Source: Psammoneis japonica (taxonomy: Eukaryota). From it: a DNA stretch of 64,000 nt. Of the stretch, positions 20,649 to 64,000 are shown piece by piece. The stretch covers positions 1 to 64,000 of the forward strand of contig QPGO01000050.1 in NCBI GenBank assembly GCA_008632985.1, given 5' to 3'. The notes under the pieces were generated by a model. The model was not told where the DNA came from. It made no database searches and saw nothing but the letters and a program-made list of their open reading frames with translations. Each line of letters opens with the position of its first letter. The stretch's first letter is position 1. A program made the position numbers and the translations under genes.

Positions 20649-20981
20649 TGAATTCTATGATGATTCGGTGAGTTGGTCGGGACTTGCTGGTTCTTCACTT
20701 GGTTGCCCCACCATGGCGGATCAAGACATGGCACATGCCTCTGGTTAGACAGTGGAATTCTTCCGCTTGACTTCTCCTCCACAATGATGCAAAATCACAT
20801 TGAACTCTGTGACTTGGTGAGTTGGTCGTGACCTGCTGGTTCTTCAGTTGGTTGCCCCACCACAATGAACCCTGACATGGTGTGTACCTCTGATTGGGCT
20901 GCAGAGTTTCCCCCCTTGACAAATCAAATTGAACCCCATGACTCAGTGCATTGGTTGCAACCTGCTGGGTTCTTCAGCTGG
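20649..20981 (+). repeat. Three degenerate ~130-150-bp direct repeats
   Basis: The core 'gttggtcg..ac.tgctggttcttca.ttgg' occurs in copies beginning near 20649, 20801 and 20930; the third copy is partial. Confidence 0.8.
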
Positions 20982-21946
20982 CAAATGCCTCTGACTGGTC
21001 AGATGGCAGAGTTCTTTGCTGCTGGAACTGTGCAAGTGTGCCTCTTTGTGCAGATCATTTTGCAGCAGCCCATTGGCCCTTTTTGAATCTTTGCTTCACA
21101 AGCAAAAGACCACAAAATGAACCTGCCAGAGTCTTTGCCATTGCACGCCAACAAAGAAAAGGCTTTTCTTGTCCTTGAGAACTCATCAAGAAACTTGCCA
21201 TTCTTGTGCCTCTTCTTCTTCTTCTTCTTCTTCTTGCTCTTGTGACACAAATGCCTCACCACCACTTTTTTCCTCATTGAGCAATCTGCCCCAAGTTCTT
21301 GAAAGGTCATCTGAGTTCACTTTGTGAACTTGTTCTGTGAGATTTCAAATTGTCTCCACTGACTCGTGATTGACACATGTTCCCCTGGTGCAAAAATTGT
21401 CTTTTGCCCACAGAGCTCAAGTGCTTGGCTCTGGCAGCTGTTTCTTTTTCTCCTTTCTGATTTTTTGGCTCATCTTTTTGAGCAGAGCTGGCATTGCTTT
21501 CTTTCATTGGTGCTGCTCCACTCAATTTTTTGCAGAACTGTGAACTCTCAACATCTGCTTTTGCTTTCCAAGCAATTGCCAGTCTTTCTTTCTGCCTGGC
21601 CAGGAGAGCAAGGTCCTCAAGTGTGCTGCTCCTTTTTTGTTGTGGTTGGCTCTGACTTGTGAAGAACATCATTGAATTTTGTTTCCAAAAAAAGAAAATG
21701 TGGTGAAGGAAATGGCATGGTGCTCTGGTTTGTCCCATGCGCAACAACAAAAAGTTGATGCTTGCAAACATTTTTTCAACCAGGGCTCTGTTGACATCAA
21801 ACACAACAAATGCAAAAGGAAACATCATCTGTGATGTGTGCTTTCTTGTGCAACTCTGTTTCTCTGGGAGAACTTTTGCAACTTTCTGACCTTGTCACAA
21901 GGCATCTCTCAACACAAAAAATTTCCACACAGAGGTTTTTGTCTTT

Positions 21947-22448
21947 AACCCTTCAACCACTGGACTTGAGCAAATCTCCGCGGGTGGAGATTTGCTCCTT
22001 TACATCACAAATGCAGCAAAATGAGTGATTTCAGACATGAACAACATTTTGTTCGCGCGATTTTGTTTTGGAACGCGCACTCACCAAAAATCTGGGGGAG
22101 CCCTTTTTGTAATTTAGAAAGTTCAATGTCAACTTTTAACACCGGGTTTTTTGCAAGCTTCATCCATGGACAGAGAGGAACTAAATCTCAACCTGCAACA
22201 ATGCAGGTTGTCATGAATTGCTGTCACAAATGGAGCAATGATGCCACACCCTTGGAGCAAATCTCCGCCGGTGGAGATTTGCTCCCAACAAGTGAATGCA
22301 CGTGGCACACTTTACGTGGATTCTACGCTGCATGACATTTTCATGCTGTGTTCATTGTGTTGTCACAAAAGTGCATGACACATCACAAATCCTCAAGTGG
22401 AGCAAATCTCCACCCATGGAGATTTGCTCCCCTGGTGGTTGAAGGGTC
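21947..22448. repeat. Inverted repeat pair with three GAGCAAATCTCC-N6-GGAGATTTGCTC palindromes (possible transposon end)
   Basis: Palindromes at 21968-21997, ~22254-22285 and ~22399-22430. 'aacccttcaaccac' (21947) is the reverse complement of 'gtggttgaagggtc' (22435-22448) with one mismatch. Confidence 0.8.
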
Positions 22449-22504
22449 AAGAGATGAGAATTTGTGAAGAACAAGATGAGCTGGCAGCTTGGCTTGACAA
22501 TGAA

Positions 22505-22672
22505 GAGGGGCAACAGCTTCAAGATGGAAGAGGACAAGTTCAGCAGAGCAAAACTTTGCAAGGTTGCCCATGATCTGAGAAATGTGAAGAGAGGCAACAG
22601 CTTCAAGTGGATGGCAAGGACAAGTTCAGCAGAGTGACACTTTGCAAGGTTGCCCATGATCTGAGCAATGTG
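22505..22672 (+). repeat. ~85-bp tandem duplication
   Basis: 'ggcaacagcttcaag...aggacaagttcagcagag..a.actttgcaaggttgcccatgatctgag.aatgtg' occurs twice. Confidence 0.85.
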
Positions 22673-24521
22673 CACAACATCTGTGACAGGCTCTTCCCGT
22701 TCATGGCACCTGGTGAAAACAAAGTTGTCTTTGAGAGTCTTGTTGACAAAAGGAGCATCTTGAATCTCTGAAAGGGGCAGAGATGCATGGAGATGGTGAG
22801 CAGTTGTGTGCATTGGTGCACAACAGCAAGTGCCAGCAGAAGTCCATTCCACCATCCACCACATTGACCTTGGGAAGAACTTTTCCCCAGTTGGAGAGAA
22901 CAGTCATTGACCAGTGGATCTTGAGATGCTTTCTGCTGCAAGCATCATGTGGTCCACAGCCAACACATTGGGAGCACTGGGGCCATCGAGTGTCCTCTCC
23001 AGTGCATCCATTTTACATGTTCAGGGGATGCAAGTGGGGGAGAAGCTCCAAAAGGAAAAATGGGTTAAGCCTGAGTGGGATTGGTGCTCACATCAACAAT
23101 GCAAAACCTGTGGGAGACAGCTGCTCACACACAGAATGAATCATGAAAAGAGATGACCTTCAAGCAACCCTCAGCCAGAGCTCACAATGGACAAAAATGA
23201 ACAATGGAAAGGAAAAAATTGAAGTGAAAGACAGAAAGCAACAGTTTCCAACAACTTGAGGAGCTGGCTTTTTCGAGCAGCAAATGGAGCCAGGATGTGT
23301 CCACAGACTTTTAGAACATCATCCATGTCTGAAGTGAAATTGTTCAGCACATTGACCCTTGATGGCATTGGGTTGGCAAAGGCACTCAGAAGCCAAGCAG
23401 CAAAACAGACCACAATGATTGTCTGAGAATGCCTTTTTGACAACAGCCAGATGAAGAGTCAAGACTTGGTCAAAGATCATCACAGACATCCAGACCAAAC
23501 AGGAAAAATGTGGTCAACTGGTTTGGATGACTGATGAGCCACATGAGCTGGACTTGGGGGCTTCATCATTGAAACAACCAGTTTTCAAAAAAGCAACAAC
23601 ACAGGCCATTTCAAACAGCAAAGAGAGCCAGGATCATCATGTGCTTGCAGGACCTTCAGAAAATCATCCACAGTCAGTGCCAGCAGCAAGGTGCCAACCA
23701 TCACAAGATGCCAGAGACTGCAGCTGCATAAAAAAAACAATGAGAAAGTTGTTGAGTTGACAGCCTGATGATTGTGCCACAAACTGGTGCAAAATTGGAC
23801 CAAAGTTGTGCAGAAATGTGTTTGATTTCAGTGCTGAAACATCGACATCTGCAGTGTATGGCTTTGCTCTTGATGGGAAGATCAATCAACAACTCCTTCC
23901 ACCAGCGTCAGTCAGATTGCACTCTCCAGAACCCAATTTGCATTGTCAAGCAGCCCTTGCAATGATGGCCACATTGTTGCTTGATCCCAGCCATTGTTTG
24001 CTCTTCCTGTCGCCATGAATGCTTGTCAACTGACTTGACTTTGGCATCACACCCACAATTTGACAATTTCCAACATCAACCCAGACCACAGCATTGGTCA
24101 ATCTGCACTTCATTGAGTGCCTCTTTGAAGCTGACAATTGGCAACAAATGCACTCTCAAAATTTGTGTGGCATGCAACCAACAAAGCTCAAGAACCTCAC
24201 ATTTCTGACTCACATCCCAGCCAATCATCCCACAAGATCCACTTTTGCTTGAACTTTAGATCAGGACAAAATGATGGAGAACAGATCACCCACTCATCAA
24301 AGTTGTTTCTTGCTTCTAGCAAAGAGAAACTTGTCTCAAAAAGATGCTGCTGCAAATTTCTCCATTCTCCTCAAGACATTTTGCCGCCACAAAACTGCCC
24401 CATGTTTCTCTTGGAACTCCCAGCACATTGCTTTTTGAAGTTTCACTCACCTGCTGCCACTCAGAAATCAAACCTTTGAACAAGTCACTCTGGTGGAGTT
24501 TGGAAATTCGAGGTTGCTGCA

Positions 24522-24738
24522 GTTGGGGACAAGGCAACATGGGGCCACAACACCACAAGATCAACCTTCTCTCACAGTGCTGCCTCCTGCAGGGGTCCAC
24601 CAGAGACCACCAGCACCCTCAGCTTGTTGTTGTTTGTTTGGTTGACAAGTGCCATTGTGGGCCCACCTTTTGCTGTGAAGTTGGGAAGTTCAAGTTTGCA
24701 CCAACCTGTTGGGGACAAGGCAACATGGGGCCACAACA
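24522..24738 (+). repeat. 31-bp exact direct repeat
   Basis: gttggggacaaggcaacatggggccacaaca at 24522-24552 and 24708-24738. Confidence 0.85.
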
Positions 24739-27497
24739 GCACACAGTCTCTGGGGGCTGCTGCCCTGGCTCTTTGTGGGCACACATCAAGTGCTGCAGCC
24801 ACGCTGACCCAGTTGACCTCTTGCTTGACCAGCTCATTGTCTGTGATTCCACCTGCACAAGACCAACTCCACAACCTCTTCTGACCTTCTGCCTGCACCA
24901 AGTTTCAACCATGATGAGAGCACAACTTCAACAAAGGTTGTTGTGCATGTGTGTGTGTGTGTTGGTTGCAAAGATCAGCTGCCACAGCAGCCTTCCTGCA
25001 CAAACAAACAAACAAACAAACAAACAAGCCACGTGGGTCAGCAGAAATGTGAAAATTTTAATGTCAACAAGAGCCAGTTGAGATCACAAAAACTGACACA
25101 TCAGTCTTCTTCAAAAACAGATGCACTGCATCTGATTGAAACAATGTTCAACATGTGTCCAGCTTCCAAACAAAAATGAGAGCTCACAGGCAAAACACTT
25201 CAGCAATGAAGACCAGTGAAATGACTCGCTCAAGTTCACTCAAATGATTTGAAACTTTGAAAGCATGTGCAACGAAAGGCTTGAAAATGGAAAGGGCGCA
25301 TCACTGCCACACAAAGCAACACAAAAATGAAGGATGCACATCCACACAACAGCACACAAACAATGACAAACTGGCTGCCAACACAAAGAGAAGTCAACGG
25401 CAGCAAGTCAAAAGTGTGACACTGGAGCAGGCAGCTTGCAATGAACAACAAAGCAACACTTTTCTTTTGCACTCAACTCATTTCTTGAAACCAACACAAG
25501 TTGACAAAAACCGCCAAGAAGGATGAGAAACAAAGTGCCGCAACATTGTGCACAGGCAAGCAGAAACAGCAGCATTGTGCCACACTTGCCAAAGAAAACA
25601 TGCCAAACTGACAATTTCTTTGCTGTCTTCTGCCAGGGATTTCTGTCATTTCTCACAATGAAAAGCTGTCACAAAAACCAAATCTCTCTTTGAAACATGA
25701 AAAGGATTGGAGAACAGGACACATGATGCCACAGCACAGCTGAGAAAGAACACCAAGATGCAAAACAGACTGCAAGAGACAGCTGGGCCAACAATGGGAC
25801 AGCAGCTTGAAGAACAGAGGGATCAAAGCCAGGCAACAGAGTGACACAGTGTGAAATGAGAGCATGTGTCAAATGTCAAACATTGTCAGGGTAGAAAGCA
25901 ATCACTGCTGGATGCCAAAATCACAGGGCTCGCTCCAATTGACAAATGAGCAAATCAAATTGTTGGTGAACTCCAGCCAACAAATGACCACAATTGATTG
26001 GATCAACGTGGGTGGCTGTGTGTGCACAGAAATGAGCCATGCATTTCATTGATTGTGTTGTTCTTTCCTGTTTTGTCAACTTGTGTGACAACAGACACTC
26101 TGACACCTGCAATTGTTGTGCCATGATTCTTGAGTTCAAAACAAATCTTGTCAAGAGCCCACATGCTGTGAGACCAAGTTTTCTTGAGTCTGGTTTCCTG
26201 CTTTGCCAATGCAGCCAATTGTCAAAACTGATTTGTTCACAAGCAACAAAGGAGCACTTGGCAAGAACACAGGTGTCTTGTTGAGCAATTTTCAACTCTG
26301 AACAAGAGCACCAGCTGCACTTTCCAAACAAACAAATGCAGGGTGTCAGCACTGCTCCTGGTGTGCTGTGCTGCAAGTTCCCATCTGGAGCTGAAACTCT
26401 CATTTTGTTGGGTGCACCAGGCTGTGCAGGCAGTTTGCTGGGTGAGAAACTTCTGGACAATTTGTGTGGTTTTCTGTGAATTTCTGTGACAGATGCAACT
26501 GGCACTGCACAAGCAAATCGAGCTCAAAAATGAAAGCGATTTTTTCTTCATGTCTCTCATGTTGCAAATTGTCAATGTGGGTGTGGTGCTGTGCTGCTGT
26601 CCTCATGAACTTACTCACTCTCAAACCAACAGCCTGCCGAAAAGGCAAGAAGGGCGAAAGTGGGTTGGCTGGGCTTGTTTTGTGCCTTGCTCCACACAAC
26701 AACCTGGTTGACATTTTGAGTTTTGTTGCCATTTGTTGGGTCTTGCAGAGAGCTTTTTGACTTGCTGTGCATGGCATTTGAGAAGTTTCCTTCTCTCCCT
26801 CAGATGACATTCTTCACAGCCCTCAGCTCCGCTGACTTGATGCTGGCCACAAGCAAAAGTTGATGGTGCGCACATGATGGCTGGCACACTTTTCTTTGAA
26901 ATGTGTTGACTGAACTTTGAGTTGTCATGGATGGATGATGCCTTTGCTTCATTTGATGGTGGTGAGTTGCACAAACCCACTGATTTTTTGTCATGGACAA
27001 AAGAGCAATTTTGGGCTCAGCTTTGAGAGTGTCAACAATGACTGAGAAGAGCCCAAACAACAAGCACATGTTGCAGGTCCAATGTTTCAAAGCAGATGAG
27101 TCTTCAGATTGGCTGACTTGACTTTGGCTGCGGCCCTTTGTGGCCAGCACACATCTTTTTCTCCTAGAACAAGCATCTTGGAGCAATGATGGATCGGTCG
27201 ATCTTGCAGGGACCTCCATTGATGTTTGATTGCCAGGTGCCAGGGGATCGAGTGAGCCAGTCGTCGTCATCCTGTGCCACGTGGATGGAGACGAAAAACT
27301 GGCGCGCGGTCGATCGGTGCATGGTGAGTGGTGGGAGTGACGTGTTACAGTATGCGTGCGCGCTTTTGCGCTTTCTGCTCTCTCCCGCCCTCTGCCGCAC
27401 GATGTTGCCGTCAGCCATCAGTGTGTGTTGTTCTCTGATGAGACCTTCTGCTTTCGACACTCAACCGGTCTTCTTATTGCGTGCCGTAGCAACAAGG

Positions 27498-34269: not shown

Positions 34270-34399
34270 CTGCGATCATCACCAACGACCAACGACGACA
34301 AATTCGCGAGCTCCAGGCAGACGAGCTCTGCAAATCTTTGTGAGTATTTTTATCCCTCATGAATGTTTGTTTTCATTGGAATTTGCAGATCTTTATGAG

Positions 34400-35450
34400 C
34401 ACTTTCGCCACTCCTCTGCCGTGTGTCACAGCTTTCTCGTGCCATTTTCTTTTTCCCATTGCACTCACTTTTGCGCTCTTTTCATCGACTGCTCACTCTG
34501 CTCATTCCTTGTCATCAACCAAAGTCTTGCCAAGAACATGTGCCACCACTGTCACACCACAATGACAGCCCTGAAGAAAGAAAGAGGATGACTGCTTGGT
34601 CACGACAACAACCACAAGTGTGGCCCCCTCATCTGATGGCCAACTTCTGCTGCCACACCTTGGCATGCAATGCTGCTGCATTTTGGGGTGGGAAGATCAA
34701 AGCAACAGCAACAACATGAGATTCCCAAAGTTGTTGAGTGGTCACTGCACCACAAAGAACACACTTTCTTTTCAGTGCACAGAGAGTCAGCCGCGCGAGA
34801 TTTTTTTGTGGCTTTGGCACAAAGAACATGTTGTGTGCACGATGTCTCTCCACAAAAACAATGTCAGAGACCCAGCAGGTGCAGCTGGTTGAATGCACCA
34901 GAGGAAAACACCAACAAAAAACATGGTTTCCTTTGTGCTGCATGGGTGGTGGTCATGGGATCAGCACTCAACAAGCTGGCACACAGATCCTTTGGTTGAG
35001 TGCAGGAGCAGCAGCTGCTGCCACCTCAAGCAGCCTGAGGCACTTGACAGTGGCGCACCTTTTTCTCATGAAGGCAGGTGCCAGTGCCCCATGTTGCTGA
35101 TGTGACAGAAACCTCATTTGCAGCATTGGCCAACAATGTGAGCCGCTTCTTGGCGGGGCCTCAATGGCTGCAAGATGCTGACAAGCTGAGCAAGCAGCTG
35201 CAGCTTCCTGTGCAAAGCCATGCACAGTCAGTCAAAGACAAAGGTGCTGCAAATGGACTCCAGGCCAGAGAGCAACATTAAATTTGTGTCCCACCCTCCA
35301 AACTCAGCTGGCAATGCCCAGCCACTGACTTTAGTTGCACAAGAGTTCTGGGGCAACTTTGACACACACAAAATGGAGACAACACATTGCTCATGAACAA
35401 AAAATGAGTGCCCTCAAGACTTGGAAAGTTGCTCATTTTTCTTTGAACAG
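34400..35450. other. CpG- and TpA-depleted hypermutated domain 2 (~1 kb)
   Basis: Only about two TA in ~1 kb (TTAA ~35279, TTAG ~35332). Few CG apart from a CCGCGCG patch at ~34791. Confidence 0.85.
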
Positions 35451-35745
35451 CTCGTCATTTTGGGAACGAACACTTTAAGCAAAGGGAAGCCGTTTGTCTG
35501 CGGCTTCGATAATTCCTCCTCACGATTAGCGTTCCCAAGGCACCACGTCCGAGCCGGTCGGAACATAACAGATTTGTAACGCGGGATAAAGTTATGGATG
35601 ACAAATGTTAGCTACACAATGTTTCTATTATTATAATACGGTCTATGGTGGCAGCATCTCGCCAATGCAAGCTCGCACGGCTGAAGTCAAAATCGTTTCA
35701 CGCGGAAGTGTCGCGCAAAACTCAATCTCTGCGATATCAAATCAT

Positions 35746-49846: not shown

Positions 49847-50094
49847 TTTGTGGAACTAATTAAACTTTACCTCTTCTAGCTAACACCCTAGCTTTGGCTC
49901 TCACTCGAGATGAGCTGGCAATGAATTACCATCTTTGTTGCCTTCGAACTTCGAACGAACCAAGTTGCCGCTGTCCGTGGCGGCGGTTTCTTTTTGCTTT
50001 TGCTTTATTCGAAATCTGGTGACGTCAGCACGAGGCCCCTTGACCGACCGACCGACCAAGCATCAACCTTTCGAGCGAGCGACATTGAGCCGAA

Positions 50095-50330
50095 ATACTG
50101 AATACTCTACTCTATCTAGAGCTCTACTATAGTAGAGAGACTAGGGCTAACGTTCGACGAACCGTAGCTACTAGAGAGTAGGCTTACCGATAGCTTGCTA
50201 GCTACTCGTAGTAGCCTACCTCTAGAGTATTTGTTGTAGTAGATATTAGAGCTAGATTTAATTGCGTCGATGCGGTTATAGCCTGCGGGATGCTCCTGTT
50301 AGCTACTTCTACAACGCTAGTACAGTACAG
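50095..50330. repeat. CTAG/TAG-rich quasi-palindromic intergenic array
   Basis: tactctactctatctagagctctactatagtagagagactag, gtagctactagagagtag, gctagctactcgtagtagc. Confidence 0.7.
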
Positions 50331-50630
50331 AACAAGAGCATCTTCTCGACCACGGTTAACGATGGAGACTACGTAAGATGTGCAAGTTTCAAGTTGCTCT
50401 CCATGCTGCTCTAGTACAGTAACGAACAGCTTCCGTCCGAGGCGAATTGGGCACTGTCCATTCATGTATTGAATTAGGTCGTTCAACGAATCGAAACGCC
50501 AGAGAGACTTGTTAGCTACACGGTATATGTTATTGGCAAAGTTACGCTACAGTAGCACGCAAGCAATCATTCCCATCAACAACACGCGCGACTCAGCAGG
50601 TACAATTTCTCTCGTCACTCGCTTTCACTC

Positions 50631-51358
50631 TCATTCAACGACTGCTGGTGGTGCTCTTTTAATGACTTGATCCATATCACCAGGCGCAAAGATATCCCTT
50701 CCATCGTTCAAATGGATCTTATATGGTGCCCATGAATTCGCCGGCCAGTTAGGCTCACGATACCATAACTGTACAATTTTTCCAGGTGCCCATCCAGTCA
50801 CAGCATCTGGTCCAATGCGGCACAAAACGTCGTCGCCCACCTCGAAACGAAGCCTAGGTAAATTCGTTTCCGTATCCCATTCAGGTTCTGGTGGCCAATC
50901 CGCTTCTTCACCCCGATGCCATTTTTCTAAAACGTCTTGTGTGGGGAAATTTTCCTTCAATTCTTCTTCAGTGACATCTTTGGCTTCCATTGGCAAACCC
51001 AGCATACCACGACCGCCACTTTTCTCATCAAAGTTTTGCATTGTTCAAAATTCAAGACACGATTTCGTGGGGGGATTACAGCAAAGAAAAAAAGCAAGAG
51101 GTATGTAAGGTCGCTGAATCACGACAACCATCTCAATCCACCACTGTATTGCTCGTACCTTTCAAAGACAATTGTAACGAGTGTATCGATAGGGGAACAC
51201 TGAGGGTCACCACATTGAACTTCTTGAACTGCCACCGTACATTCGTTCCGCAGATTCTCTGGAACTGAATTCAAAGTCAATTGCTCAACCCGTTCACACG
51301 CTTCGCGGGATTCCTTCTTTTTCTCCTGCTCTGCTGCTTGGTTCTGTGGCAGAAACAT
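50631..51358 (-). CDS. Hypothetical protein (2 exons) with a C-terminal 'LRFxVGxxVxCR...W..G...APY...DG..IFAP' module
   Basis: ORFs 51119-51358 and 50631-51041 join through a predicted intron at 51019-51158. Confidence 0.7.
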
Positions 51359-51804
51359 CGTATTATGAACTTGTAAGCAGCTAATAAGAGAGGGTAGCAG
51401 AGTATTGTAGTTGTATGGAGAAGCAACAACAATCAGTCAGCCAAACTCTGTCTTGGCTGGGTCTTTCTCGCTTCTCGCACCGCGCCCCGCAGTGCGACGT
51501 GCGACGCGTGACGCCGTGTCCCGTGTGAGCGAGCGCGTGTAGTGTTGCACGCATGCGATGACGGACCGGACCTGATTTTTCATTTTCCATCCGTTGAGTG
51601 ACGTCATCAAGAGGGGAAATGAACTGTAGTTCCGTACGTGGGTTAGTACGAAAAGTGCTCAGAAAAGAGGTTGATTTCCCCCCTCTCTTCTCCCCTTGCA
51701 GGTCGGGTGTTGGGCATTTGCCCATGACGCCCGCACACACTACCGAGAGTCATTCGCCGACGACATAGTACACCGCAACTAGAAAGTTCACTGACACCAT
51801 AAAG

Positions 51805-54627: not shown

Positions 54628-54873
54628 AATAGCGGCTGCGACAGTTTCAGTAGTCAAGGCCCATTCTAGAGCTGTTAAAAAGCGACGACGCCGAATGTAC
54701 AATAGGAACTAAGAGCTTGAAGCGATTCGTTCTGACTCTGGTTTTATACACTGATTATTTCGCTTAAGAAAATCAGAATGTTTTCCCACGAGGCCACAAT
54801 TAACTACTTAGACCTGGTGGGAGATATCGTTCCTTTTCGATGATTCCGTCGTTGTCGCATATCATTCGCGTCT

Positions 54874-55218
54874 TCACTTCCCCTTCTCGATTTCCAGGTA
54901 CTGCTCGAAGTCGATCGCTTGAGTTCCTTGCATTTCCTCCAACGGGAGGAAGTCGCTTCCACTCTCGCTTGAATCAGTAGAAGATGTACTGATAGATCGA
55001 GTTGATACTTGGGCAAACACGCGACCGTTCGCTTCAATATCCACCTCGCCGTTCGATGAAAAAGACGAGCAACGAGACGTGTGGCGACGAGCCTTTCCTC
55101 TTCGTCGGCGCTTGTTGTTTTCGCGGGGGGTCAGCTTGGCGCGACGCACAGTGCCCTCGTTTGCAACCTGTCCAATTGTGTCCAGAACATCACTAAAAAG
55201 CCATTTGATATCATTCAT
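54874..55218 (-). CDS. Small hypothetical protein
   Basis: 114-aa ATG-initiated ORF with plausible composition; no family recognised. Confidence 0.35.
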   Translation of the reverse strand: MNDIKWLFSDVLDTIGQVANEGTVRRAKLTPRENNKRRRRGKARRHTSRCSSFSSNGEVDIEANGRVFAQVSTRSISTSSTDSSESGSDFLPLEEMQGTQAIDFEQYLEIEKGK

Positions 55219-55629
55219 TTTAGACTTGAAGACGGGAAAAATGAAACGCTAAGCTTTGTTGACGGAAACGAAAAGTGATACCAAATAATCTTCACGATCA
55301 AAAACGAGGGCAGATCCGAGACCGAAAAGTCTCAACTGGACATCCACCGCGTGATTGATGGTAGGCTATTGCAAAAAATGTCAATGTGGGACTTTCCAAA
55401 ATAACAAAATGTTTTTATTTAAGAACCATAAATATTTGTGCAAAGATATTAATACAAATATAACAAGCCCTTCTTATCGGAGACACATTTATTATAACAC
55501 ACCACTATCAAAAATTAGAATAGACACCAATCCCGTAGATGTCTTTGCGATGCTCCAAATAATGGTCGATTTTAGACGGCTTTCAGCCGTGATGAACGAT
55601 TGTTTATGCAAGGGGTTTATGAAACGGTG

Positions 55630-58600
55630 GTTTTGAGAGTGAAGTGACAAACCTCCAGTTTGCAGGGCCGAGTGAGGAGCTCTCAACATCCTCTGAGCAA
55701 AGAGTTGGTTTTGGGGCAATGGCAGGTGTGTGAAACTTTGAAGTCTCGATCAAGTGCTTGGGTCGTCGCTCAGAGACAAGCTGCGCTGGTGCTCCTGGCT
55801 GTGTGCCTCAAGAGACAAAACAAAAGATGTCAAATGCTGATGCAGGAAAAAAGTTGGCTGATGCAGCTTGAGCAATGAATTTTTTGTGCTTCTGCAGCAC
55901 CGCTTCATGCACAACAATCAACCATCATGAATGGCAGCTGCCAGAGGTGCATCATCAAGGGTTCTTGGTGTGGTTGTCAAAAATCCCTGGCAATTGGCAT
56001 GTGCTGGGAGAACTCTGTTGTCGACATCCACATGGCAGCACCAGCAACTTTGAAGAAGCTTTCATGCTGGGCACAATGGTGTGTGTTTGCAATTTAAAGA
56101 GATGTCAAACACAGCTCGCACACAACATTGTGAATGTGTGTGTTGACGTTGGAAGCATGGTGGCTGCACAACATTCCCATGTCAAGTTTTTGGATCTTGA
56201 GATGTTGTTGCAACATCAAAACATGTGCTCAGCTGCAAGTCATTGCACATTAAAGCCCAAGTTGCACACAAGCAACTGCGCCACTTCTCAAGCTGGCTCT
56301 TGCTTGAATGTCATGTTGCTCAAGTTCCACAAACATTTTTTTCATTTTGGCAGCACACATCAAACACAATGGAGCAGAAGCTGAGATGCAAAGTTGACTC
56401 AGCTCATTTGGCAGAAATTCCAAGTGCTTTTTTGATGCCATTGCTTGCACGCTGTCCTCCTGCAATGCTGGTGTGCAGCCACATCTCACACTCCTGATTG
56501 CAACTGGTCAATGTCACACTTTGAAAAGAGCCATTTGTCAACAAAGGGCAACAATCAGAGCTCAAGCAATTGCAAACACTTGGCTCTTCTGAGCTGCCAC
56601 AGCTCTTGTGGGCAGCCAAGTTTTTCAAGATTTGGAGCTTCAAGGCAGTGAGCACACCATCTTGCTGAGCTGCTTCTGCTCCAGGCAGAGTGGACAAGCT
56701 TTCAAACTGGCCTCCCCAAGATGTTGCACTGCAACAAAGAACCAGAGGAAGAAGAGAGCACATGATGGAGCTGCTTTGCCACTGCTTTTTCAGCAAAGAC
56801 ACTCTGAACAAGTGCTGCTGATGTGACACAATTTGTGAAAATGCAGTGTGTTGCACTTGCCCCCTGAGTTGGTCACACCTGAAAATCATTGAGACACAGC
56901 CAATTTTCTGAATGCATTGCATGCTTCCATGCACACTTCTGTCAAAACATGACAGCACATCCTGGCAGCTGGTGGTGCATGACCACAGCTGACTTGTGGA
57001 GTGCTTTTCTTTGGCTTCATTCTTGGATGCATTGCTGCAGCAACTTCTTTGTCACCCAGTCTCTGCAAGACAAGCCCAAAAGCTGTTGACCTTGTTTTCT
57101 GATGGAAGCTGCGGCATGATCTTTCTCTGGCAAGAGACTTGTTCCTTTTGTTTCATGTTTCTGGCCAAACTTCTAAAATGGCCAATCTTCAACCAGCTTT
57201 TCTGTTCCAAAACTCCAGTGTGTTGCAATGCCAGGCACTTTGTCCACAATGCAAAAGGCATTTCTTTGCATCCTCTGCTGCACTGCCATGCTTTGAGCTT
57301 GTCTCATGTCATGCACTTGCAGCATCAGCAAGGGAAGTGGACCACAGCCATGCAAAAAAATTGGCACACTCAGAGAGGCAAACATGTGAAAGTCCAAAGC
57401 AGGGGCACCTCACACAGCTGCCTTGCTTTGAGGTCAGGGATGCGCAGGGGTGAGGATTGAAATTTTTCATGGGCCACAGATTTCCCTCACACTTCACTGT
57501 GTTGTTCTGACCTCCCCAGGAACACCCCCAAACACTTCTGCATTTGTCAAATCCTTGTTGGGGCTGTTGAGCCACTGTGACAGCTGCACATTTGAAGCTT
57601 CAAATGCACCATTCATCAGCCTGTGCCCTGTTGTTGGGTTGAAATTGCTGCCAATTTTTGCTGAAACATGATGTCTCTCATGGGGGATGAGTGGCACCTT
57701 CTGGGAACCTCAGACATGTGGCACATTTGACAGGCCATTTGCACATCTGCAGTTGCCAAGGAAGGAGCCAAACACCATGCATGGTCATGAAGTCATGACT
57801 TGTCTGTGCACTTTGTTGTGTCTCATAAAATGGACAAAGTTTGACCCATTGCCAGAATTTTAGTCTTGGAACATGCAAGCATTTGGTGCAATGCATCCAG
57901 ATTTTTCTCAAAAACATTGCACACCTGCAAACATCATCTGCCTTCACCCCTGTGGATCCACCCTCAAGGGCACATGCAGGAACATCCAAAACCTTGTGTC
58001 TGTCAATGCCATTCTCCAATTAGCTGAGTGTGGTCAATGCCAGCAAACAAAGACACAGAAGAACACCTTGTGTTGCAAAGCATCAAAAAAAGGTGAGCAG
58101 CAAGAGGAAACTCTGCCCCCCTCAAGTGTGAGTTGGCATGACTGCTTGAAATGAGAGTCAAGGGAAGTGACCACAGCTTGGTGAAAACACATGAGAGCAC
58201 TGTCATTTGCACTTCATTTCTCCAGGTCTCCATCATGGCTGCACTGAACAAACTTTGGAAAAGTGGGCAGATGACAAAGGATTTTGTGTCAACAAATGAT
58301 GTGAAAGTGACATTTTCCCACAAGCGTTAGAATGTCTTGAACAAGGGGGGGGCAAACAATTGCTTTGGAGGCAACTCAAATCAAACATTGATGAGTGCCC
58401 CACCCCACATGCAGATGTGCACACAGATGCCAACAAGACAAGTGCCAATGGTTGCACTTCCTCATCCAACAAGATGTGCTGCCCTGACCAAAAAGCAAAC
58501 AACTTGGAGCTTGAAGAAGAGCTCTTTTGGTGGTTGTCCAATGTGCTGAAGAACATGTTGGTTTGTTGAGTGGCAAGGGGGGGCAGGTTTGTGGACTCAA

Positions 58601-61600
58601 GGAGCACAGCTTGTGGCAACTTTAATGCAAAAGCACAACATTGAAGCATGTGACAGGCATGTGGTGTGTGTGAGGGTGCATGTCTTGGACACTTGAGCAA
58701 TCATCTCCAAAACAGTGGTCGGAGAGCTGTCTTTGAACACGGTGCAATGCACAGCTGGGGTTGTTTTTAAAATTGGTGTTTCGCTCCTTGAGTTCTTTTG
58801 GCAGGTGCAAAGAAGTGGGCTTTGGCTGACTTGGCAGCACAGAGAAAGCAGAGTTCTCAGACTTGGCACTGAGGAGGAGGGCAAACATGGTTTGCAGCAT
58901 GGGGGCCAGCAAAGTGGCACATTGGCGCAAACCTGTGGGGGGGCATGTGGCATCAGGATGATCTGCTGATTTAGCAGCTGCCACAGAAGACAGCACCCAC
59001 ATTTTGTCCACACAGCATCAAGGCCACAAATGTCATTTGGCTTGATGACATGCACCGCACTTGACTTCTGGCAGCAAAATTGCACACGGAGCTCATCAAG
59101 ACAAAACAGGCACATTCTTAGAGGGCAGGACATGCAGCATTGCTGCACATGAGTTTCTTTGAGAAGCTCAGTTTTCTGACAGCAGAGCACAGCAGCCCCC
59201 CACCACAGGATTTGGCAAAAGGCATGCCACTTGGGTGCACTGGCCCTGCAAGTCTGGCGGATCAAGCTGGAAGGTCATGAGCTTTGGCATCAGGGAAGGA
59301 AGGGTCATTGGCATGTTGTCAATGAGACCATGGTCTTTCAGAACAGTGGTGTGTCAATTTTGAGGCAGCCACCAATGTCACCTCATTTGTCAGAGATGTG
59401 GGTGCACCCACTCAAATCTTTGGCATGTGCTGGTTGATCTTGTCATCTGGTGGGGGGTCACACACAGGTTGGGCCATTGTGTTTTGGTGTGCACACAAAA
59501 TCAAGCAATGGTGGGTGAACGCTCATTGCATGTTGGCTGCTTGTTCAAACTGGTGTTTGCATGTGCAGCAAGAGCACAAACCAGGTGCAATCAGCATCTT
59601 TGCCACTGAGTGTGGTTTTCAGTGTTTCAGTGCAGCATTTGTTGTGCAGCCCAAATCACTGCCAAGGAAGAAGTTGATGCCCTTTGGCAGCTCTGCAAGA
59701 GAAAACCTCTTGGCACCACAGCATGTTCTTGGCAAGCCAGTGCACAAAACCAGCTTGTTGTTCAAAGTTTTGCTTAAAAAGGACAGATGACAGCAGCCCA
59801 TTGGAGAGTGCCAGAAAAAGAAATTGATTGCGTCATTGTCTTGCTGCTGCCCACACCAACTCCTCTGACCACCCACATTCCCCAACACACAAAAGGGCAG
59901 CATGGACAATTTGAGCACTGTTTGGCACATTGTCGTGAAACAATGCCTGCCACATGCTGCAGTTCCAGCAAGCTGCAACAGTGCCCAGTTGAACAAGCAA
60001 GCCTGGTCACACTGCATGGGACAAGCTGCCAAAAACAAAGAACATGCTGCAGAAAAACTGAGCTCAGCAGGAGTCTCCAAGAAAGATGCAGTGCTTGAAA
60101 GGATGAAAAAATGCACTTCCTGGGACAAACATCTAAAGGAAAGTCCAACAAGGACAACAATGGTCAGGAGAGAAAATGCCTTGACACTGGCACACAATGA
60201 ATGTGCTGGAAAGTTGTGCTGAGCCAGAGTGACAAATGCAAAACCAGCATCAAGCGGCAGTGCATCAAGGTGTGTCCAATTGAGAGCACTCTGAGGCCCC
60301 TCTTTGGGATGCCAGGTGACAACCTTTGAGAAATGAAAGCCAGCTGCAAGAATGCTTGGAATGAAAAAGTTGGCAAGAAGCAAGATGACAAAACCTGCCC
60401 ATTGTTGTCTCACAAATGTGCCCAGATGTGCAGAATTGAGCTTGAATTTTGCACTGAAAGGCTGGTGCAAAAGGAGCTGAAACCATGCGGAATTTCACTT
60501 AGAGAATGCACTTCAATCTGGAATGAAAATCAAAGAGATTTGACACCATGGCATTGCCAAACCCACCAAATGCAGGCACAACAAAGCATCCCTTCAAAAC
60601 CCTTGATGTTTTGTTGTTGGCACAACTGCCTGACACTCCAACAGGCCCGGCAGAGAGCCGCGCCCACAAGGGACAATTTCTTGGGTGCTGATGTGAAATT
60701 GTGCCCATGAGAAGAGAGTTCTTGTGCAAGAGCATGGAGATCAACACATGGCTTGCTTTTTTTCATTTGTGTCCACCCTGCTGATTGAGCCAGCTTTTTC
60801 ACTGAAATTTTCTCACTTTGAATGTGGGAACATGGGGGGGTGCTTGTGCTTGACAGACTGCCACCATGCTGAAGGCAGAATGACAGTCTTGCCCTTTGGC
60901 ACATCAGCATTTTCAACAATGTGCCAGTGTTTTCCACAAGTGTGGTCTTGTTTTCTTTCACCATGGCCTTCTTGAGCTCACAAGCACTGCACTTGCAGAA
61001 AGGAGCTTGAACATGCAAAGAGTGCCCAGGTTGTCAAAGGCTTTCATGCTGTGCAGAGTGGCACATCCTCCAACTGGCTGCATGCAGAAAAATGTCTGAA
61101 ACACCATGCCATCAAAACAAAATCACATCATTGTGGCCAATGCCATTGTGAAGGGGTGGCACACGTGGATGAAAAAACCTCTTCTGGGGATCAAACAGAG
61201 TGTGTGTGCCTTTTCTTTCAAATTGAAGCTGTTGCAGACAGTGCTGCTGGAACCCAGAGCTGCTGTGCTGATGCAGTCAAAAGTTCTGGAGCTGGCATGA
61301 CTGGTGTGGAATCTTGCAGATCTTCTGGAAGACCTGCAGCTAGAAAGATGCAAAGTGCAGCATCTTCTAAAGGCAAAGTCAGGAAGCAGAAGATCTGTGG
61401 GAGAGGGAGAATCACACTTCTCTTGTTCTCTTGCAGAAACCCAAAAGTTGTTCAACAAGAGGCCCAAGTTTGTCATTGCACAGGTGTGTTGTCTTCTGTT
61501 GCATCATGCTTTTGCTTTGGGATCAGAGCCAAGGATGCATGCACCATGTGCTCCAACATCTCCACTGGAGAAACACTGGTCTCATGTCCAATGAATCAAT

Positions 61601-64000
61601 CAACAAACTGACAAAACAACTTTGTGACCTTTAACTGCATGTGAAGAACTTGCAGGATGATGAGGAGCACATCACATGGCAACCTCCACCAAGGCCCACA
61701 GAGGCACATCAGCCAACTTGGCAGCAGGAGGAGCATCAAGAGTTCACCAAACAACTTTCCTGAATGACAACTTCAGGGCAAGTGACAGAGAGTGCAAGTT
61801 GCAAGCACAGCCAAGGTTGTCTTTTGGAAGAGAGGCAAGTGACCCAAGCCAACTGTTGTGACACAGCAACTGAGACAATTGTGAAGATGGAGTGCCTGCT
61901 TGCTGACAACAGATTGTCACTCCAACAAGCCTCTCTCACAACTTCTTTTGCTGCCTGTGCACATCAGAGAACTGGCAACTGGCATGTCAAGCCCAAGCCC
62001 TGCACTGTCACAAGCTCCCAAGAGGCAGCTGAATTGACAAGCCACCAACTTGCAGAGTGTCAGTCAGCGACCCCAAGGTGAGGTGGAAAAAACAAGAACA
62101 GATGGCATGACACAGCTGAATTTGTGGGTGTGTGCCCAGACCTCAAGGCCACCACAGCATGCAACATGTCATTGCCAACAAGGACACATTCACCAAGACA
62201 ACAAGGACAACCATTGCTGAGCATGTGGGGTGCACCAAGTGTGCTGGTGCAGGAGAGCTGTGCATGGGCATGGCAGAGCCAAGGCTCCCAGCCCTCACAC
62301 TCCACCTGCTGGCCCCACAACCAACCCTTTGGAGGCCATGATTGAGCAATGGAAACTGGCCTGCTGAGCCTGCCATGACAGTGCAAAGTGGAGACATGCC
62401 AGCACCTCAAGGGATTTTGCTCTGGCACTGGGGCAATGCTCCCAGACTGCAAGGAACAGGGTGGAGGCCGCACATCAAGATTGGCCTGTGGTGAATGCAG
62501 CCTCTGATGTGACAGAGCTGCTGGCTGCAATCAGGGCCTGCATGGCTCAATGCCAGACTTTGCACTGCCACCCAGTGTGCATCATCATCAAGGCCAAGTT
62601 GGCTTCTTGCTCTTCAAGCAGGGAAGGCACACATCCACCAGAGATGGCTGTTTGATTTGATGCCTGCAACTGCAACAACAGCTCATTGTGACTTGAGTGT
62701 CCCCAGCTCTTGAAGATGCCTGAAATGTTGCCAATGAGTGCAACAAGACGGCTGACACCCAAAAACACTTTTTCATTGGGATGGAGAAACAATGCTTGCT
62801 CCCACCACTTTGTGCCTCAAAACAGCACAGCCCATGTCACGGGGAGAAGAAAGAAACACATCAAAACATTTAAAATGATGTTTTCAGACAGACAAAGCTG
62901 AGCCAGACCCTGATGGTCTGCATTGGAGGGGGGGAGAGGTCCAGCAGCGCAGTCACCAGCAACACTGGAACAAATTTCATTGATCTCACCCAAGAGCTTC
63001 TTTCCCATCAGCTGCACAGAACAGGCCATGCAGAGTGACCCCAGCTCTGGACAAAGAGCCAACCTTTTGGCCAGAGATGTGAAGAAGTTGCTGGGCACAA
63101 GTCAAAGCAAAAGCCACATGAAAGTCAAGGTAAAAAATGCTGAGCACTGACAAATGGTCTTGCACTCTGCAAGCAACAGTGCATGGAAATCCCTTCCAGT
63201 GTCCCCCAGTGAAATTTTCCATGTGCCCAATCCACAGAAAGAGCAGAAATGCTGGAAAACAAAGGAAATGAAATTTGGGTGATGCCTCTCCCAACACTGC
63301 TGTGCGGAGTGACTCAAAGACCAGTGGTGTCATTGAAATGACACCAACAATGTCCTCAGGGGATGACCGCAGCCATGGCATGTTGGAGCCGTCCCAAGCT
63401 TTTCCCATCATGATGTCACTCCAGCCCCCAACAAAGTGCTCTGTTTCATTCTGGTTTTCATCTTGAGCTGTTTCTGTTGACTGTGATGTGACTTGGGCTG
63501 CAGGTGGCTTTCTCTCATGACTTGCTCCTTGTTTGGCTGAGTCACCACACTTGAGGAGAGAGGAGTCATCATGTGTCACATGTTTGCTCAAACAACATGG
63601 CAAGTCGCCAGAGCCACAAGGAGACATCAGCACAAATGAAGGCATCAGAGAAAGCACAATCCCAGGGATGGAGCTGTGCCATGCATGGGTTTGTTGCACC
63701 ACTTGCACATGGTGTTGAGCACAAAATGCAAAGATGCATGATGCACATGGTGGCAGGAGCTTTGTGTCTGTGCAAGGGATTTTAGAGGCAGTGCAAAACA
63801 TTTGAGTCAGAATGTTTTGATGTTTGGCACTAAAAAGGGGCTGCATTTTCTGCTGAACACAAAACCTTCAAGCGACAATGACACACATTGTTGTTTTGTG
63901 GAATTCCGCTGGACACAAAACAATCATTTCTTAACAAAAATCACGTGTTGGATTTCACACCCATGCAAGCCATCAAGCAAGCTTGCAAGGATGCTGTGTG
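55630..64000. other. CpG- and TpA-depleted hypermutated domain 3 (continues past the window end)
   Basis: Only about 20-25 TA by eye in 55800-64000 and few CG, with TG/CA strongly enriched. ORFs are nearly Tyr-free; e.g. 59619-60470 has no Tyr in 283 aa. Confidence 0.92.

What the first reader, a model, noticed from the sequence alone, without database searches (positions are those of the whole stretch)
55800..64000. Surviving TpA are almost all YTAR, so the mutator targets TAY/RTA
Seen: the ~22 TA found by eye are TTAA, TTAG, CTAA or CTAG (e.g. 56095, 57174, 57861, 58328, 59119, 60134, 61341, 63783). The only exceptions are ATAA (~57826) and GTAA (~63131). Domains 1 and 2 show the same tendency. 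TAY and RTA are reverse complements, so the pattern is strand-symmetric and implies A->G in T-A-Y at the DNA level. Established: TadA-derived deaminases favour a TA(C) context, whereas ADAR favours UAG and acts on one transcript strand, which does not fit survival of TAG. Inference: an enzyme with a defined trinucleotide specificity rather than drift or GC-biased conversion.
Basis: partly seen in the sequence, partly recalled or inferred. Interest (0 to 1): 0.82.

Follow-up and report, generated by a model that had tools for sequence, protein, structure and literature searches.

The report
TpA- and CpG-erased diatom DNA domains
In a diatom chromosome, kilobase-long stretches have had nearly every TA and CG dinucleotide turned into CA or TG, and the few TAs left sit beside a T or an A, which points to a targeted, context-specific DNA mutator like one just reported in an unrelated alga.

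Summary
Over all three domains 27 of 34 are YTAR, against 20% in the background (P=1e-13; other nulls 1e-7 and 2e-11).

The same domains have also lost CpG (9% left), while CpA/TpG rose by the same amount that TpA+CpG fell. YpR steps stay at 239 per kb and GC is unchanged. So these are in-situ transitions at both self-complementary YpR steps.

The flank rule is graded, not binary. Survival is TTAA 45%, TTAG/CTAA 26%, CTAG 5%, all other classes at most 5%. Fitted loss rates are TAT≈TAC > TAG > TAA, about 10:9:4:1. An independent product asymmetry (RCAR/YTGY excess) agrees.

One domain holds a frameshifted pseudogene of a diatom host-gene family, with Tyr turned to His/Cys and Arg to His/Gln.

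The closest known case is TpA hypermutation in Bigelowiella natans (2026 preprint). No enzyme was tested, so TadA/ADAT-like adenine deamination remains an inference.

The parts
55785..64000 (.). Domain 3: a stretch erased of TpA and CpG that runs off the window end
   Evidence: It holds 22 TA and 37 CG in 8.2 kb. Per-kb rho is 0.02-0.08 for TA and 0.02-0.13 for CG, and 1.6-2.2 for CA and TG.
55619..55784 (.). Left edge zone of domain 3: TpA already absent, CpG still at normal density
   Evidence: 0 TA and 6 CG in 166 bp. Background rates predict about 6.7 TA.
62550..63501 (-). Frameshifted pseudogene of a diatom membrane-protein family with no Pfam domain
   Evidence: The 293-aa ORF 62986-63867(-) has 6 relatives with E from 3e-11 to 7e-4. 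An HMM of the six matches four pieces in three frames: 62989-63867, 63105-63329, 62820-63101 and 62550-62816. Family members include Nitzschia inconspicua nuclear proteins. The 7 Tyr columns now read H2 C2 L N F. The 9 Arg columns read H2 Q2 R2 V L K.
20886..27164 (.). Domain 1: a stretch erased of TpA and CpG, interrupted by an island with normal TA/CG content
   Evidence: Outside the island it holds 10 TA. Rho for TA is 0.01-0.10 and for CG 0.06-0.24.
21945..22450 (.). MITE-like element inside domain 1, with ~54-bp terminal inverted repeats and three copies of a 13-bp-stem hairpin
   Evidence: blastn finds inverted arms 21945-21998 and 22399-22450 at 83% identity. The left arm and centre keep 8 TA and 13 CG in 382 bp. 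The right arm has 0 TA and 0 CG in 124 bp. CGCG in the left arm aligns with CATG in the right arm, and TTAA with TTGA.
34395..35452 (.). Domain 2: a short erased stretch
   Evidence: It holds 2 TA (TTAA and TTAG) and 13 CG in 1.06 kb. Its first 92 bp have 0 TA but 5 CG.
20661..21060 (+). About three tandem copies (period ~149 bp) that straddle the left edge of domain 1
   Evidence: The alignment shows TCG in the outside copy against TTG and TCA in the inner copies, and TTAG against TTGG.

Best explanation
Shown. The window is nuclear DNA of a pennate-type diatom. Three sharply bounded domains have undergone saturating, strand-symmetric transitions, in place, at the two self-complementary pyrimidine-purine steps: TpA->CpA/TpG and CpG->TpG/CpA. 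At least part of the target was ordinary host sequence, because one domain holds a decayed host-family gene.

The TpA component depends on the neighbouring base. Read on the adenine strand, the loss rates rank TAT≈TAC > TAG > TAA, about 10:9:4:1 if the survivors reflect pure decay, and up to about 28:1 for RTAY against YTAR if they reflect a mutation equilibrium. What remains is therefore mostly TTAA and TTAG/CTAA. The CpG component is almost free of context, with only a mild protection of GCG.

Inferred. The CpG loss is deamination of 5-methylcytosine in a methylated, silenced domain. The TpA loss comes from a separate activity targeted to the same chromatin, most likely deamination of adenine in DNA to inosine, which is read as G. 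The likely enzyme is of the TadA/ADAT2 type, whose natural substrate has U before the target A. This would be the same kind of process as the de novo TpA hypermutation seen in Bigelowiella natans. The two activities have slightly different footprints at two of the domain edges, which argues for two enzymes rather than one.
For: Mass balance. YpR steps number 238.8 per kb in the domains and 239.0 per kb in the background. TA+CG fall by 90.3 per kb and CA+TG rise by 90.0 per kb. GC is 0.471 against 0.482. Applying the two conversions to the window's own background reproduces all 16 dinucleotide frequencies (r=0.984, RMSD 5.5 per kb against 24.3 untransformed). It also improves the 12 non-YpR dinucleotides (RMSD 6.0 against 10.0).

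Flank dependence. Survival is TTAA 0.45, TTAG/CTAA 0.27, CTAG 0.05, GTAA/TTAC 0.05, ATAA/TTAT 0.03, and all other classes at most 0.01. The Poisson half-site fit gives T 0.32, C 1.31, G 2.82, A 3.29. Uniform against R/Y has P=4e-14, and R/Y against four bases has P=5e-4.

Product asymmetry. S=(RCAR+YTGY)/(RTGR+YCAY) is 1.64 overall, and 1.47-1.71 in each of the four domain segments tested (D1, D2 and the two halves of D3), against 1.13-1.23 in three background blocks. An even-split simulation gives 1.11±0.06, and 0 of 300 runs reach the observed value.

Direction. Of 7 conserved Tyr columns in the pseudogene, 0 remain Tyr and 4 are His or Cys. Of 9 Arg columns, 4 are His or Gln. Repeat copies differ at TCG/TTG/TCA, TTAG/TTGG and CGCG/CATG.

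Host origin. The family includes Nitzschia inconspicua nuclear genes.

Separate footprints. The zones 55619-55784 and 34395-34486 hold 0 TA but 11 CG between them.

Real DNA. A 15.6-kb contig of a DNA run spans 47853-63473 with 2 differences, both YpR transitions inside the domain. That run may be the source of the assembly.

Precedent. In B. natans mutation-accumulation lines, 230 of 231 de novo mutations in two hypermutable regions were A->G or T->C, and all of those fell on TpA. An ADAT2-like candidate enzyme was proposed (bioRxiv 10.64898/2026.01.13.699255, sections 4 and 12 read).
Against: No enzyme, methylation state or de novo event was observed here, and no genome was available.

The ancestral sequence is assumed to resemble the background. 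Base-specific accounting of the products fails because the flanks themselves mutate.

The observed S (1.64) is higher than the graded TpA model with an even CpG split predicts (1.33±0.07). Either TpA strand choice is nearly absolute, or CpG also has a flank bias with b≈0.6.

At the four Tyr codons that became His or Cys, the two His codons follow a pyrimidine, contrary to the rule.

The excess of TTA/TAA among the remaining TAs could partly be regeneration (C->T at TCA) rather than slow loss.

No viral or transposon domain was found in any frame of any domain, so a 'defence against foreign DNA' reading has no support here.

The TadA preference for T-A-C is recalled, not tested.
Confidence: 0.55

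Rival explanations
1. One pyrimidine-directed chemistry does both jobs. An enzyme acts on 5-methylpyrimidines at YpR steps, that is thymine in TpA and 5-methylcytosine in CpG. One example would be a TET/JBP-type dioxygenase that makes 5-hydroxymethyl- or 5-formyl-uracil, which mispairs with G and gives T->C, and oxidised 5mC that ends up as T. The flank rule would then read R-T-A > C-T-A > T-T-A.
For: Both losses occur in the same domains to a similar depth (TA 5.5% left, CG 9% left). Both changes can be written as a change of the 5' pyrimidine of a palindromic YpR step. The product asymmetry is equally well read as T->C after a purine.
Against: The TA-free zone overshoots the CG-free zone at two edges, which suggests two activities. 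The flank preferences run in opposite directions: 5' purine speeds T->C, while 5' pyrimidine mildly speeds C->T (YCGR 4.9% left against RCGY 12.6%, from the counts). In B. natans TpA mutates without any G.C->A.T excess. The mutagenic properties of oxidised thymine are recalled, not tested.
Confidence: 0.1
2. The remaining TAs are not survivors. They are new TAs, regenerated after erasure by C->T at YpCpA, for instance an APOBEC-like TCA->TTA. The YTAR pattern would then report the specificity of a second mutator, not of the TpA eraser.
For: 30 of 34 residual TAs contain TTA/TAA, against 672 of 1895 in the background. TC/GA is 20% lower and TT/AA 11-23% higher in the domains. A model in which only YCA generates TA predicts a YTAR share of about 55%, which is nearer to the observed share than the other nulls.
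Against: The observed share is 27 of 34 (79%), against the ~55% that this model gives from the precursor counts. Among TTAN occurrences only 5 of 41 are TTAY (hand count from the classes), although TCAY makes up about 44% of TCAN in the domains. So TAY must still be removed selectively. The fall in TC/GA is largely reproduced by TCG->TTG in the two-process model.
Confidence: 0.12
3. An error-prone polymerase, or RNA editing, causes the TpA loss rather than a DNA deaminase. Candidates are Pol eta-type WA->WG errors during repair synthesis, or ADAR hyper-editing of double-stranded RNA followed by reverse transcription and insertion.
For: Both give A->G with a 5' T preference (recalled).
Against: Pol eta's WA motif includes AA, but AA is enriched 1.23-fold, not depleted. 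ADAR is recalled to favour UAG, whereas TAG survives better than TAY here. CA and TG alternate as in the background, with no strand-coordinated clusters (runs test z=0.11 in D3, -3.3 in D1, -3.4 and -3.5 in the background). The domains sit in place with sharp edges beside normal genes. Neither route explains the CpG loss.
Confidence: 0.05
4. No mutation took place. The composition is either selected or foreign (sequence that avoids TA and CG), or an artefact of base-calling or assembly at heavily modified DNA.
For: Both TpA/UpA and CpG are known targets of avoidance in some viruses and mRNAs (abstracts seen in the listing). The only run that holds the stretch may be the source of the assembly.
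Against: Rho of 0.01-0.1 on both strands over 15 kb with no recognisable coding function is far beyond any reported selective avoidance. The YpR count and GC content equal the host background. A host-family gene lies decayed inside. k-mer contigs at word depth ~65 reproduce 15.6 kb with 2 differences, and neighbouring genes in the same assembly are intact.
Confidence: 0.04

Closest known systems
TpA-specific hypermutation of integrated giant-virus and virophage regions in Bigelowiella natans (Mettrop et al., bioRxiv 10.64898/2026.01.13.699255; outline, sections 4 and 12 and term passages read)
   Same: A.T->G.C transitions confined to TpA, giving TpG/CpA on either strand. Confined to particular regions of a nuclear genome. 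A long-term signature of low TpA with high CpA+TpG in clustered 1-kb windows. Many affected sequences are unannotatable.
   Different: This is a diatom (Stramenopila), not a chlorarachniophyte (Rhizaria). Erasure here is near-complete (rho 0.01-0.1), whereas rho TpA is 0.45 in their virus region. CpG is erased as well, while their text has 0 occurrences of 'CpG' and reports essentially no G.C->A.T changes. The only identifiable content here is a host-family pseudogene, not viral genes. A flanking-base hierarchy is seen here, whereas 'trinucleotide' and 'flanking' occur 0 times in their main text. Their supplementary tables could not be opened and may hold the contexts. No de novo events were observed here.
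Repeat-induced point mutation (RIP) of ascomycete fungi
   Same: Region-wide, saturating, dinucleotide-specific transitions that destroy genes in silenced DNA and leave a diagnostic dinucleotide skew.
   Different: The direction is opposite. RIP turns CpA into TpA and raises TpA and AT content (abstract of PMC2621366, seen in the listing). Here TpA is removed and GC is unchanged. An 0.8-kb duplicate at 89% identity in the same window is untouched, so duplication alone is not shown to be the trigger.
CpG decay by 5-methylcytosine deamination in methylated repeats
   Same: CpG->TpG/CpA with little flank dependence, confined to domains. Diatoms are reported to methylate part of their genome (about 6% in P. 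tricornutum, as cited in PMC6604790; passage read).
   Different: It explains only half of the signal and has no TpA component. Methylation of these domains was not measured.
TadA/ADAT2-type adenine deaminases, including TadA-derived DNA base editors
   Same: A->I (read as G) with a 5' U/T before the target. A preference for a pyrimidine after the A is recalled for TadA, whose natural site is U-A-C-G of tRNA-Arg, and matches TAY > TAG > TAA.
   Different: No such enzyme was identified here. The natural substrates are tRNA. Action on chromosomal DNA is reported only for ADAT2 of amphioxus (A and C) and Trypanosoma (C), as cited in the preprint.

Membership tests
TpA hypermutation as described in Bigelowiella natans | Changes are A.T->G.C transitions at TpA, giving TpG or CpA | tested here: met
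   Indirect but from several lines: the YpR mass balance; 4 of 7 Tyr columns now His or Cys and none still Tyr; TA/TG differences between repeat copies.
TpA hypermutation as described in Bigelowiella natans | Confined to discrete regions that contrast sharply with the rest of the genome | tested here: met
   Three domains whose edges resolve to under 200 bp, with TA at 2.2 per kb against 40.6 per kb.
TpA hypermutation as described in Bigelowiella natans | Targets are integrated viral or other foreign sequences | tested here: not met
   No Pfam family in any of the six frames of D1, D2 or D3. The one recognisable remnant belongs to a diatom nuclear gene family. Most of the domains remain unidentified.
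TpA hypermutation as described in Bigelowiella natans | Observed as de novo events at about 1e-7 to 1e-6 per site per generation in some lines | not testable with these tools
   Only the source sample's runs hold the stretch. The two differences between assembly and contig (55999 CA/CG, 61368 TA/CA) are suggestive but n=2.
Fungal RIP | C->T at CpA, producing an excess of TpA and AT-rich DNA | tested here: not met
   TpA is depleted about 18-fold, CpA is enriched 1.7-fold and GC is unchanged.
Fungal RIP | Triggered by sequence duplication | tested here: inconclusive
   The domains share no repeats with each other or with the rest of the window, even in purine/pyrimidine code. A PRP3 fragment duplicate (807 bp, 89% identity) has normal TA and CG. 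Other contigs of the run overlap short parts of D3.
5mC-driven CpG decay | CpG->TpG/CpA with weak flank dependence | tested here: met
   78 CG remain, against about 860 expected from the background rate. Class survival is 2-26%, highest for GCGC and CCGC/GCGG.
5mC-driven CpG decay | The region is cytosine-methylated | not testable with these tools
   No methylation data are available.
TadA/ADAT-like deaminase signature | The target A is preceded by T and favoured when followed by a pyrimidine | tested here: met
   Half-site rates are TAT 3.29, TAC 2.82, TAG 1.31, TAA 0.32. The product asymmetry places the discriminating base next to the mutated base on the same strand.
TadA/ADAT-like deaminase signature | A deaminase of that family acts on nuclear DNA in this organism | not testable with these tools
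   No genome is held for the window.
ADAR hyper-editing | A 3' G is preferred, and clusters are confined to one strand | tested here: not met
   TAG survives better than TAY. There is no strand-coordinated clustering beyond the background.
Pol eta WA-motif mutagenesis | A in both TA and AA is mutated | tested here: not met
   AA rises from 77.8 to 95.9 per kb.

The most novel reading that the evidence does not exclude
Diatoms carry a chromatin-targeted 'YpR eraser', a genome-defence or silencing-linked mutagenesis that works like RIP run backwards. It converts both self-complementary pyrimidine-purine steps (TpA and CpG) to CpA/TpG until none remain, and it can consume host genes as well as repeats. 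Its TpA arm is the same ancient machinery as in Bigelowiella, so it would be shared across the SAR supergroup, and it has a readable trinucleotide specificity (TAY > TAG > TAA) that identifies the enzyme class.
Probability: 0.25. Interest if true: 0.9.

Novelty: new variant of a known kind. Interest (0 to 1): 0.78.

Why it matters
Targeted adenine-to-guanine hypermutation of chromosomal DNA has been reported only once, in a 2026 preprint on a rhizarian alga. Its enzyme and sequence rules are unknown.

This window shows the saturated end-state of such a process in a diatom, a different supergroup of great ecological weight. It adds three things that the main text of that work does not report: co-erasure of CpG, a host-gene victim, and a quantitative flanking-base hierarchy.

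The hierarchy is a fingerprint against which candidate deaminases can be tested in vitro. The domains also give an easy genome-scan criterion: rho(TA) and rho(CG) both below 0.15, with an unchanged YpR count. That criterion can be used to find the phenomenon in other eukaryotes and to ask what marks DNA for erasure.

In practice, such domains will defeat homology-based annotation. Their origin could be recovered by searches that tolerate transitions.

Tried and rejected
- Own genome: none is held, so there was no genome-wide scan and no search for deaminase genes.
- Earlier findings of this scan: none by place or by words.
- Pfam on 19 domain ORFs and on read-through translations (X at stops) of all six frames of D3 and of D1 and D2: 0 families.
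- Protein searches: the 291-aa ORF 59619-60494(-) and the 245-aa ORF 24344-25081(+) gave no relative. An Atlas look-up of 58597-59274(-) gave no usable hit.
- ORF-length null for D3: longest ORF P=0.11, second-longest >=291 aa P=0.007, number >=150 aa P=0.08. This is only a weak hint of further coding remnants.
- Repeats between domains: none by exact 36-mers in purine/pyrimidine code, by blastn, or by blastp of ORFs against the rest of the window. No repeat-alignment spectrum could therefore be built inside the window. Only small internal repeats were usable.
- Base-specific tetramer accounting of products was rejected. GCAC/GTGC gains 174, far more than its GTAC and GCGC precursors can supply, because flanks that belong to neighbouring YpR steps also change. 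Purine/pyrimidine flank classes were used instead.
- Strand-coordinated clusters: none beyond the background.
- Sequencing runs: no RNA holder is listed, and only the source sample's three runs were returned. Contigs of run X2 gave no cover over 55340-64000 while covering bins to the left.
- Rfam at gathering thresholds and tRNA scan: nothing in the window.
- Literature: seven full-text searches found no description of TpA/CpG-free domains or TpA hypermutation in diatoms or other stramenopiles. In the P. tricornutum mutation-accumulation paper, 'TpA' and 'CpG' occur 0 times (PMC6604790, term passages).
- The supplementary tables of the B. natans preprint are closed. They may hold the flanking bases of its 231 mutations.

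Full report
What the window is. ORFs outside the flagged regions encode ordinary eukaryotic proteins: PRP3, a protein kinase, homoserine dehydrogenase, organellar IF3, a MORN-repeat protein and a WD40 protein. The PRP3 ORF has its best matches, at 59% identity, among diatom proteins (Cylindrotheca, Bacillariaceae, Nitzschia, Mayamaea). The window is therefore gene-dense nuclear DNA of a diatom, with about 48% GC. No whole genome is held for it.

Checking the observation. From 55785 to the window end there are exactly 22 TpA. They are TTAA 8, TTAG 7, CTAA 4, CTAG 1, ATAA 1 (57826) and GTAA 1 (63131). Inside the three domains the classes are YTAR 27, RTAR 4, YTAY 2 and RTAY 1 of 34. Outside they are 374, 482, 480 and 559 of 1895 (chi-square P=1e-15). 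The excess also stands against the domains' own first-order composition (expected share 0.347, P=1e-7). It stands too against the contexts of the CA/TG dinucleotides from which new TAs would arise (0.241, P=2e-11). Domains 1 and 2 taken alone give 7 of 12, the same direction but weaker (P=0.0036, 0.08 and 0.012).

The same stretches have lost CpG as thoroughly as TpA. Per-kb rho values are 0.01-0.10 for TA and 0.02-0.24 for CG, with CA and TG at 1.6-2.3. The domains are 20886-27164 (interrupted by an island at 21946-22326), 34395-35452, and 55785-64000, which runs off the end.

The bookkeeping is exact. YpR steps number 238.8 per kb inside and 239.0 outside. TA+CG fall by 90.3 per kb and CA+TG rise by 90.0 per kb. 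GC is 47.1% inside against 48.2% outside. Because transitions preserve the purine/pyrimidine sequence, this is what in-situ TA->CA/TG and CG->TG/CA conversion of background-like DNA predicts. I applied just these two conversions to the window's own background. That reproduces all 16 dinucleotide frequencies of the domains (r=0.984, RMSD 5.5 per kb against 24.3). It includes the secondary shifts: AA and TT up, GA and TC down, GC up.

Direction of change shown directly. The 293-aa ORF 62986-63867(-) has six relatives (E from 3e-11 to 7e-4). They are membrane proteins of up to about 390 aa (three of the six are shorter, 131-221 aa) with no Pfam family. Their clusters include nuclear genes of Nitzschia inconspicua, in tandem pairs, and marine metagenome sequences. 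A profile of the six matches four pieces of domain 3 in three reading frames between 62550 and 63501. This is a frameshifted pseudogene of a host gene family.

At 7 consensus Tyr columns the pseudogene has His 2, Cys 2, Leu, Asn and Phe, and no Tyr. At 9 Arg columns it has His 2, Gln 2, Arg 2 (one of them a surviving CGC), Val, Leu and Lys. Tyr (TAY) to His (CAY) or Cys (TGY), and Arg (CGN) to His/Gln (CAN), are the predicted changes.

Small repeats say the same. In the ~149-bp tandem copies that straddle the left edge of domain 1, TCG in the outer copy faces TTG and TCA further in, and TTAG faces TTGG. In a MITE-like element within domain 1, CGCG and TTAA in the left arm face CATG and TTGA in the right arm.

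The flank rule, refined. I scaled background tetramer counts to domain length and computed survival by class. It is TTAA 0.45, TTAG/CTAA 0.27, CTAG 0.05, GTAA/TTAC 0.05, ATAA/TTAT 0.03, and at most 0.01 for the other five classes. So YTAR is not immune: about 22% remain. The R/Y dichotomy is also too coarse, since CTAG is as depleted as the non-YTAR classes (TTAA against CTAG, Fisher P=7e-4).

A Poisson model in which each strand contributes a loss term set by the base 5' of the T (equivalently the base 3' of the A) gives T 0.32, C 1.31, G 2.82, A 3.29. It beats a uniform model (P=4e-14 for the R/Y step) and the R/Y model (P=5e-4). Read on the adenine strand, TAT≈TAC > TAG > TAA, about 10:9:4:1. 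If the residual TAs are instead at a mutation-removal equilibrium, the RTAY:YTAR rate ratio is about 28 (1 per 882 precursor sites against 27 per 836, derived). Either way the dependence is real. 30 of 34 residual TAs contain TTA/TAA, against 672 of 1895 in the background.

Which side is the discriminating base on? Survivor counts cannot tell 'A followed by Y' from 'A with a purine two bases upstream', because the two models are identical for double-stranded sites. The products can tell them apart. T-A-Y targeting sends RTAR to RCAR and YTAY to YTGY, and the alternative does the reverse. With purine/pyrimidine flank classes, which transitions cannot alter, S=(RCAR+YTGY)/(RTGR+YCAY) is 1.64 in the domains. 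It is 1.47-1.71 in each of the four domain segments tested (D1, D2 and the two halves of D3), against 1.13-1.23 in three background blocks. Simulated even-handed conversion of the background gives 1.11±0.06. The graded TpA rule with an even CpG split gives 1.33±0.07. Neither reaches the observed value in any of 300 runs. Analytically, S=1.64 needs near-absolute TpA strand choice, or a mild CpG bias as well (a≈0.85-1 with b≈0.57-0.66). A b of about 0.6 is what the CpG survivors suggest (YCGR 4.9% left against RCGY 12.6%).

Against a strict rule, the four Tyr codons that became His or Cys split 2:2, and both His codons follow a pyrimidine (n=4).

One process or two? CpG loss shows little context dependence. 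Class survival is 2-26%, highest for GCGC and CCGC/GCGG. At two edges the TA-free zone extends beyond the CG-free zone: 55619-55784 has 0 TA but 6 CG, and 34395-34486 has 0 TA but 5 CG. About 10 TA are expected there from background rates. This points to two activities with overlapping but not identical footprints.

What marks the DNA? I could not settle this. No domain shows a transposon or viral protein domain in any frame. The domains share no repeats with each other or with the rest of the window. The one recognisable remnant is a host-type gene.

An 807-bp fragment duplicate of PRP3 (7221-8027 against 46633-47428, 89% identity) has normal TA and CG. Duplication alone is therefore not shown to trigger the process.

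Other contigs of the DNA run overlap short parts of domain 3. Their unaligned ends (104 nt shown) contain no TA or CG, so similar erased sequence exists elsewhere in the genome.

The MITE-like element at 21945-22450 is informative. Its left arm and centre are normal (8 TA and 13 CG in 382 bp). Its right arm is erased (0 and 0 in 124 bp). So the limit of erasure runs through an element, not around it.

There are no strand-coordinated clusters beyond the background.

Is it real DNA? A 15.6-kb contig from a DNA run at word depth about 65 spans 47853-63473 with only two differences from the window. They are 55999 (window CA, run CG) and 61368 (window TA, run CA). Both lie inside the domain and both are YpR transitions. 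The run may be the assembly's own source, so this excludes gross assembly error but is not independent confirmation.

Comparison with what is known. The only close precedent I found is a 2026 preprint on Bigelowiella natans. In its mutation-accumulation lines, 231 of 302 mutations fell in two integrated viral regions. Of those, 230 were A->G or T->C, all of them on TpA. The authors propose an ADAT2-like DNA adenine deaminase. Seven full-text searches found nothing comparable for diatoms. The P. tricornutum mutation-accumulation paper does not mention TpA. Fungal RIP works in the opposite direction. ADAR and Pol eta signatures fail on the 3' base, on strand clustering and on AA.

Verdict. The interpretation, a context-specific mutator acting on DNA, is supported in direction and in kind. 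It needs three corrections: the specificity is graded (TAY > TAG > TAA); YTAR sites are also eroded; and the domains are equally stripped of CpG, probably by a second, methylation-linked process. The enzyme assignment remains an inference. I rate this a new variant of a very recently described kind of system, and of high interest.

Noticed in passing
window 7221-8027 and 46633-47428: An 807-bp direct duplicate (89% identity) of an internal part of the PRP3 gene lies 39 kb upstream of the gene. Word depth over 46-48 kb is 3-4 times that of the flanks in the DNA run, so further copies probably exist. TA and CG are normal in both copies.
   Followed up: partly
window 21945-22450: A MITE-like element has ~54-bp terminal inverted repeats and three copies of a hairpin with a 13-bp stem (21968-21998, 22254-22285, 22399-22430). 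Its left arm and centre keep TA and CG, and its right arm has lost them all. No family was identified.
   Followed up: partly
window 44198-44291, 45288-45376, 48966-49070, 51018-51159: Contigs of run X2, which is labelled 'DNA?', skip 87-140 bp with GT..AG or CT..AC ends. X2 therefore behaves like a transcriptome and marks short introns in the neighbouring genes.
   Followed up: no
window 55999 and 61368: These are the only two differences between the window and a 15.6-kb contig of the DNA run. Both are YpR-step transitions inside domain 3 (CA in the window against CG in the run; TA against CA). None occur in the 7.9 kb of normal sequence that the same contig covers.
   Followed up: no
window 57583-57607, 60894-60932 (loose ends): Other contigs of the DNA run match short parts of domain 3 and then diverge. 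Their diverging ends (30, 30, 30 and 14 nt shown) contain no TA or CG. Loose ends around the PRP3 gene do contain them. This suggests related erased sequences elsewhere in the genome.
   Followed up: no
window 22501-22672: An 86-bp tandem duplication lies inside domain 1 (88% matches). The two copies differ by a CA/TG swap at one position, as expected if one ancestral TA or CG was resolved differently in each copy.
   Followed up: partly
window 38767-40164 (+): An ORF fuses an UPF0029 (IMPACT-type) domain to an AlkB-like 2OG-Fe(II) oxygenase domain (Pfam E=2e-17 and 4e-25). No link to the domains was examined.
   Followed up: no
window 27131-27195: The right edge of domain 1 lies within about 50 bp of the start codon of the organellar IF3 ORF (27186-28463). 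The upstream region of an apparently intact gene therefore lies in erased DNA.
   Followed up: no
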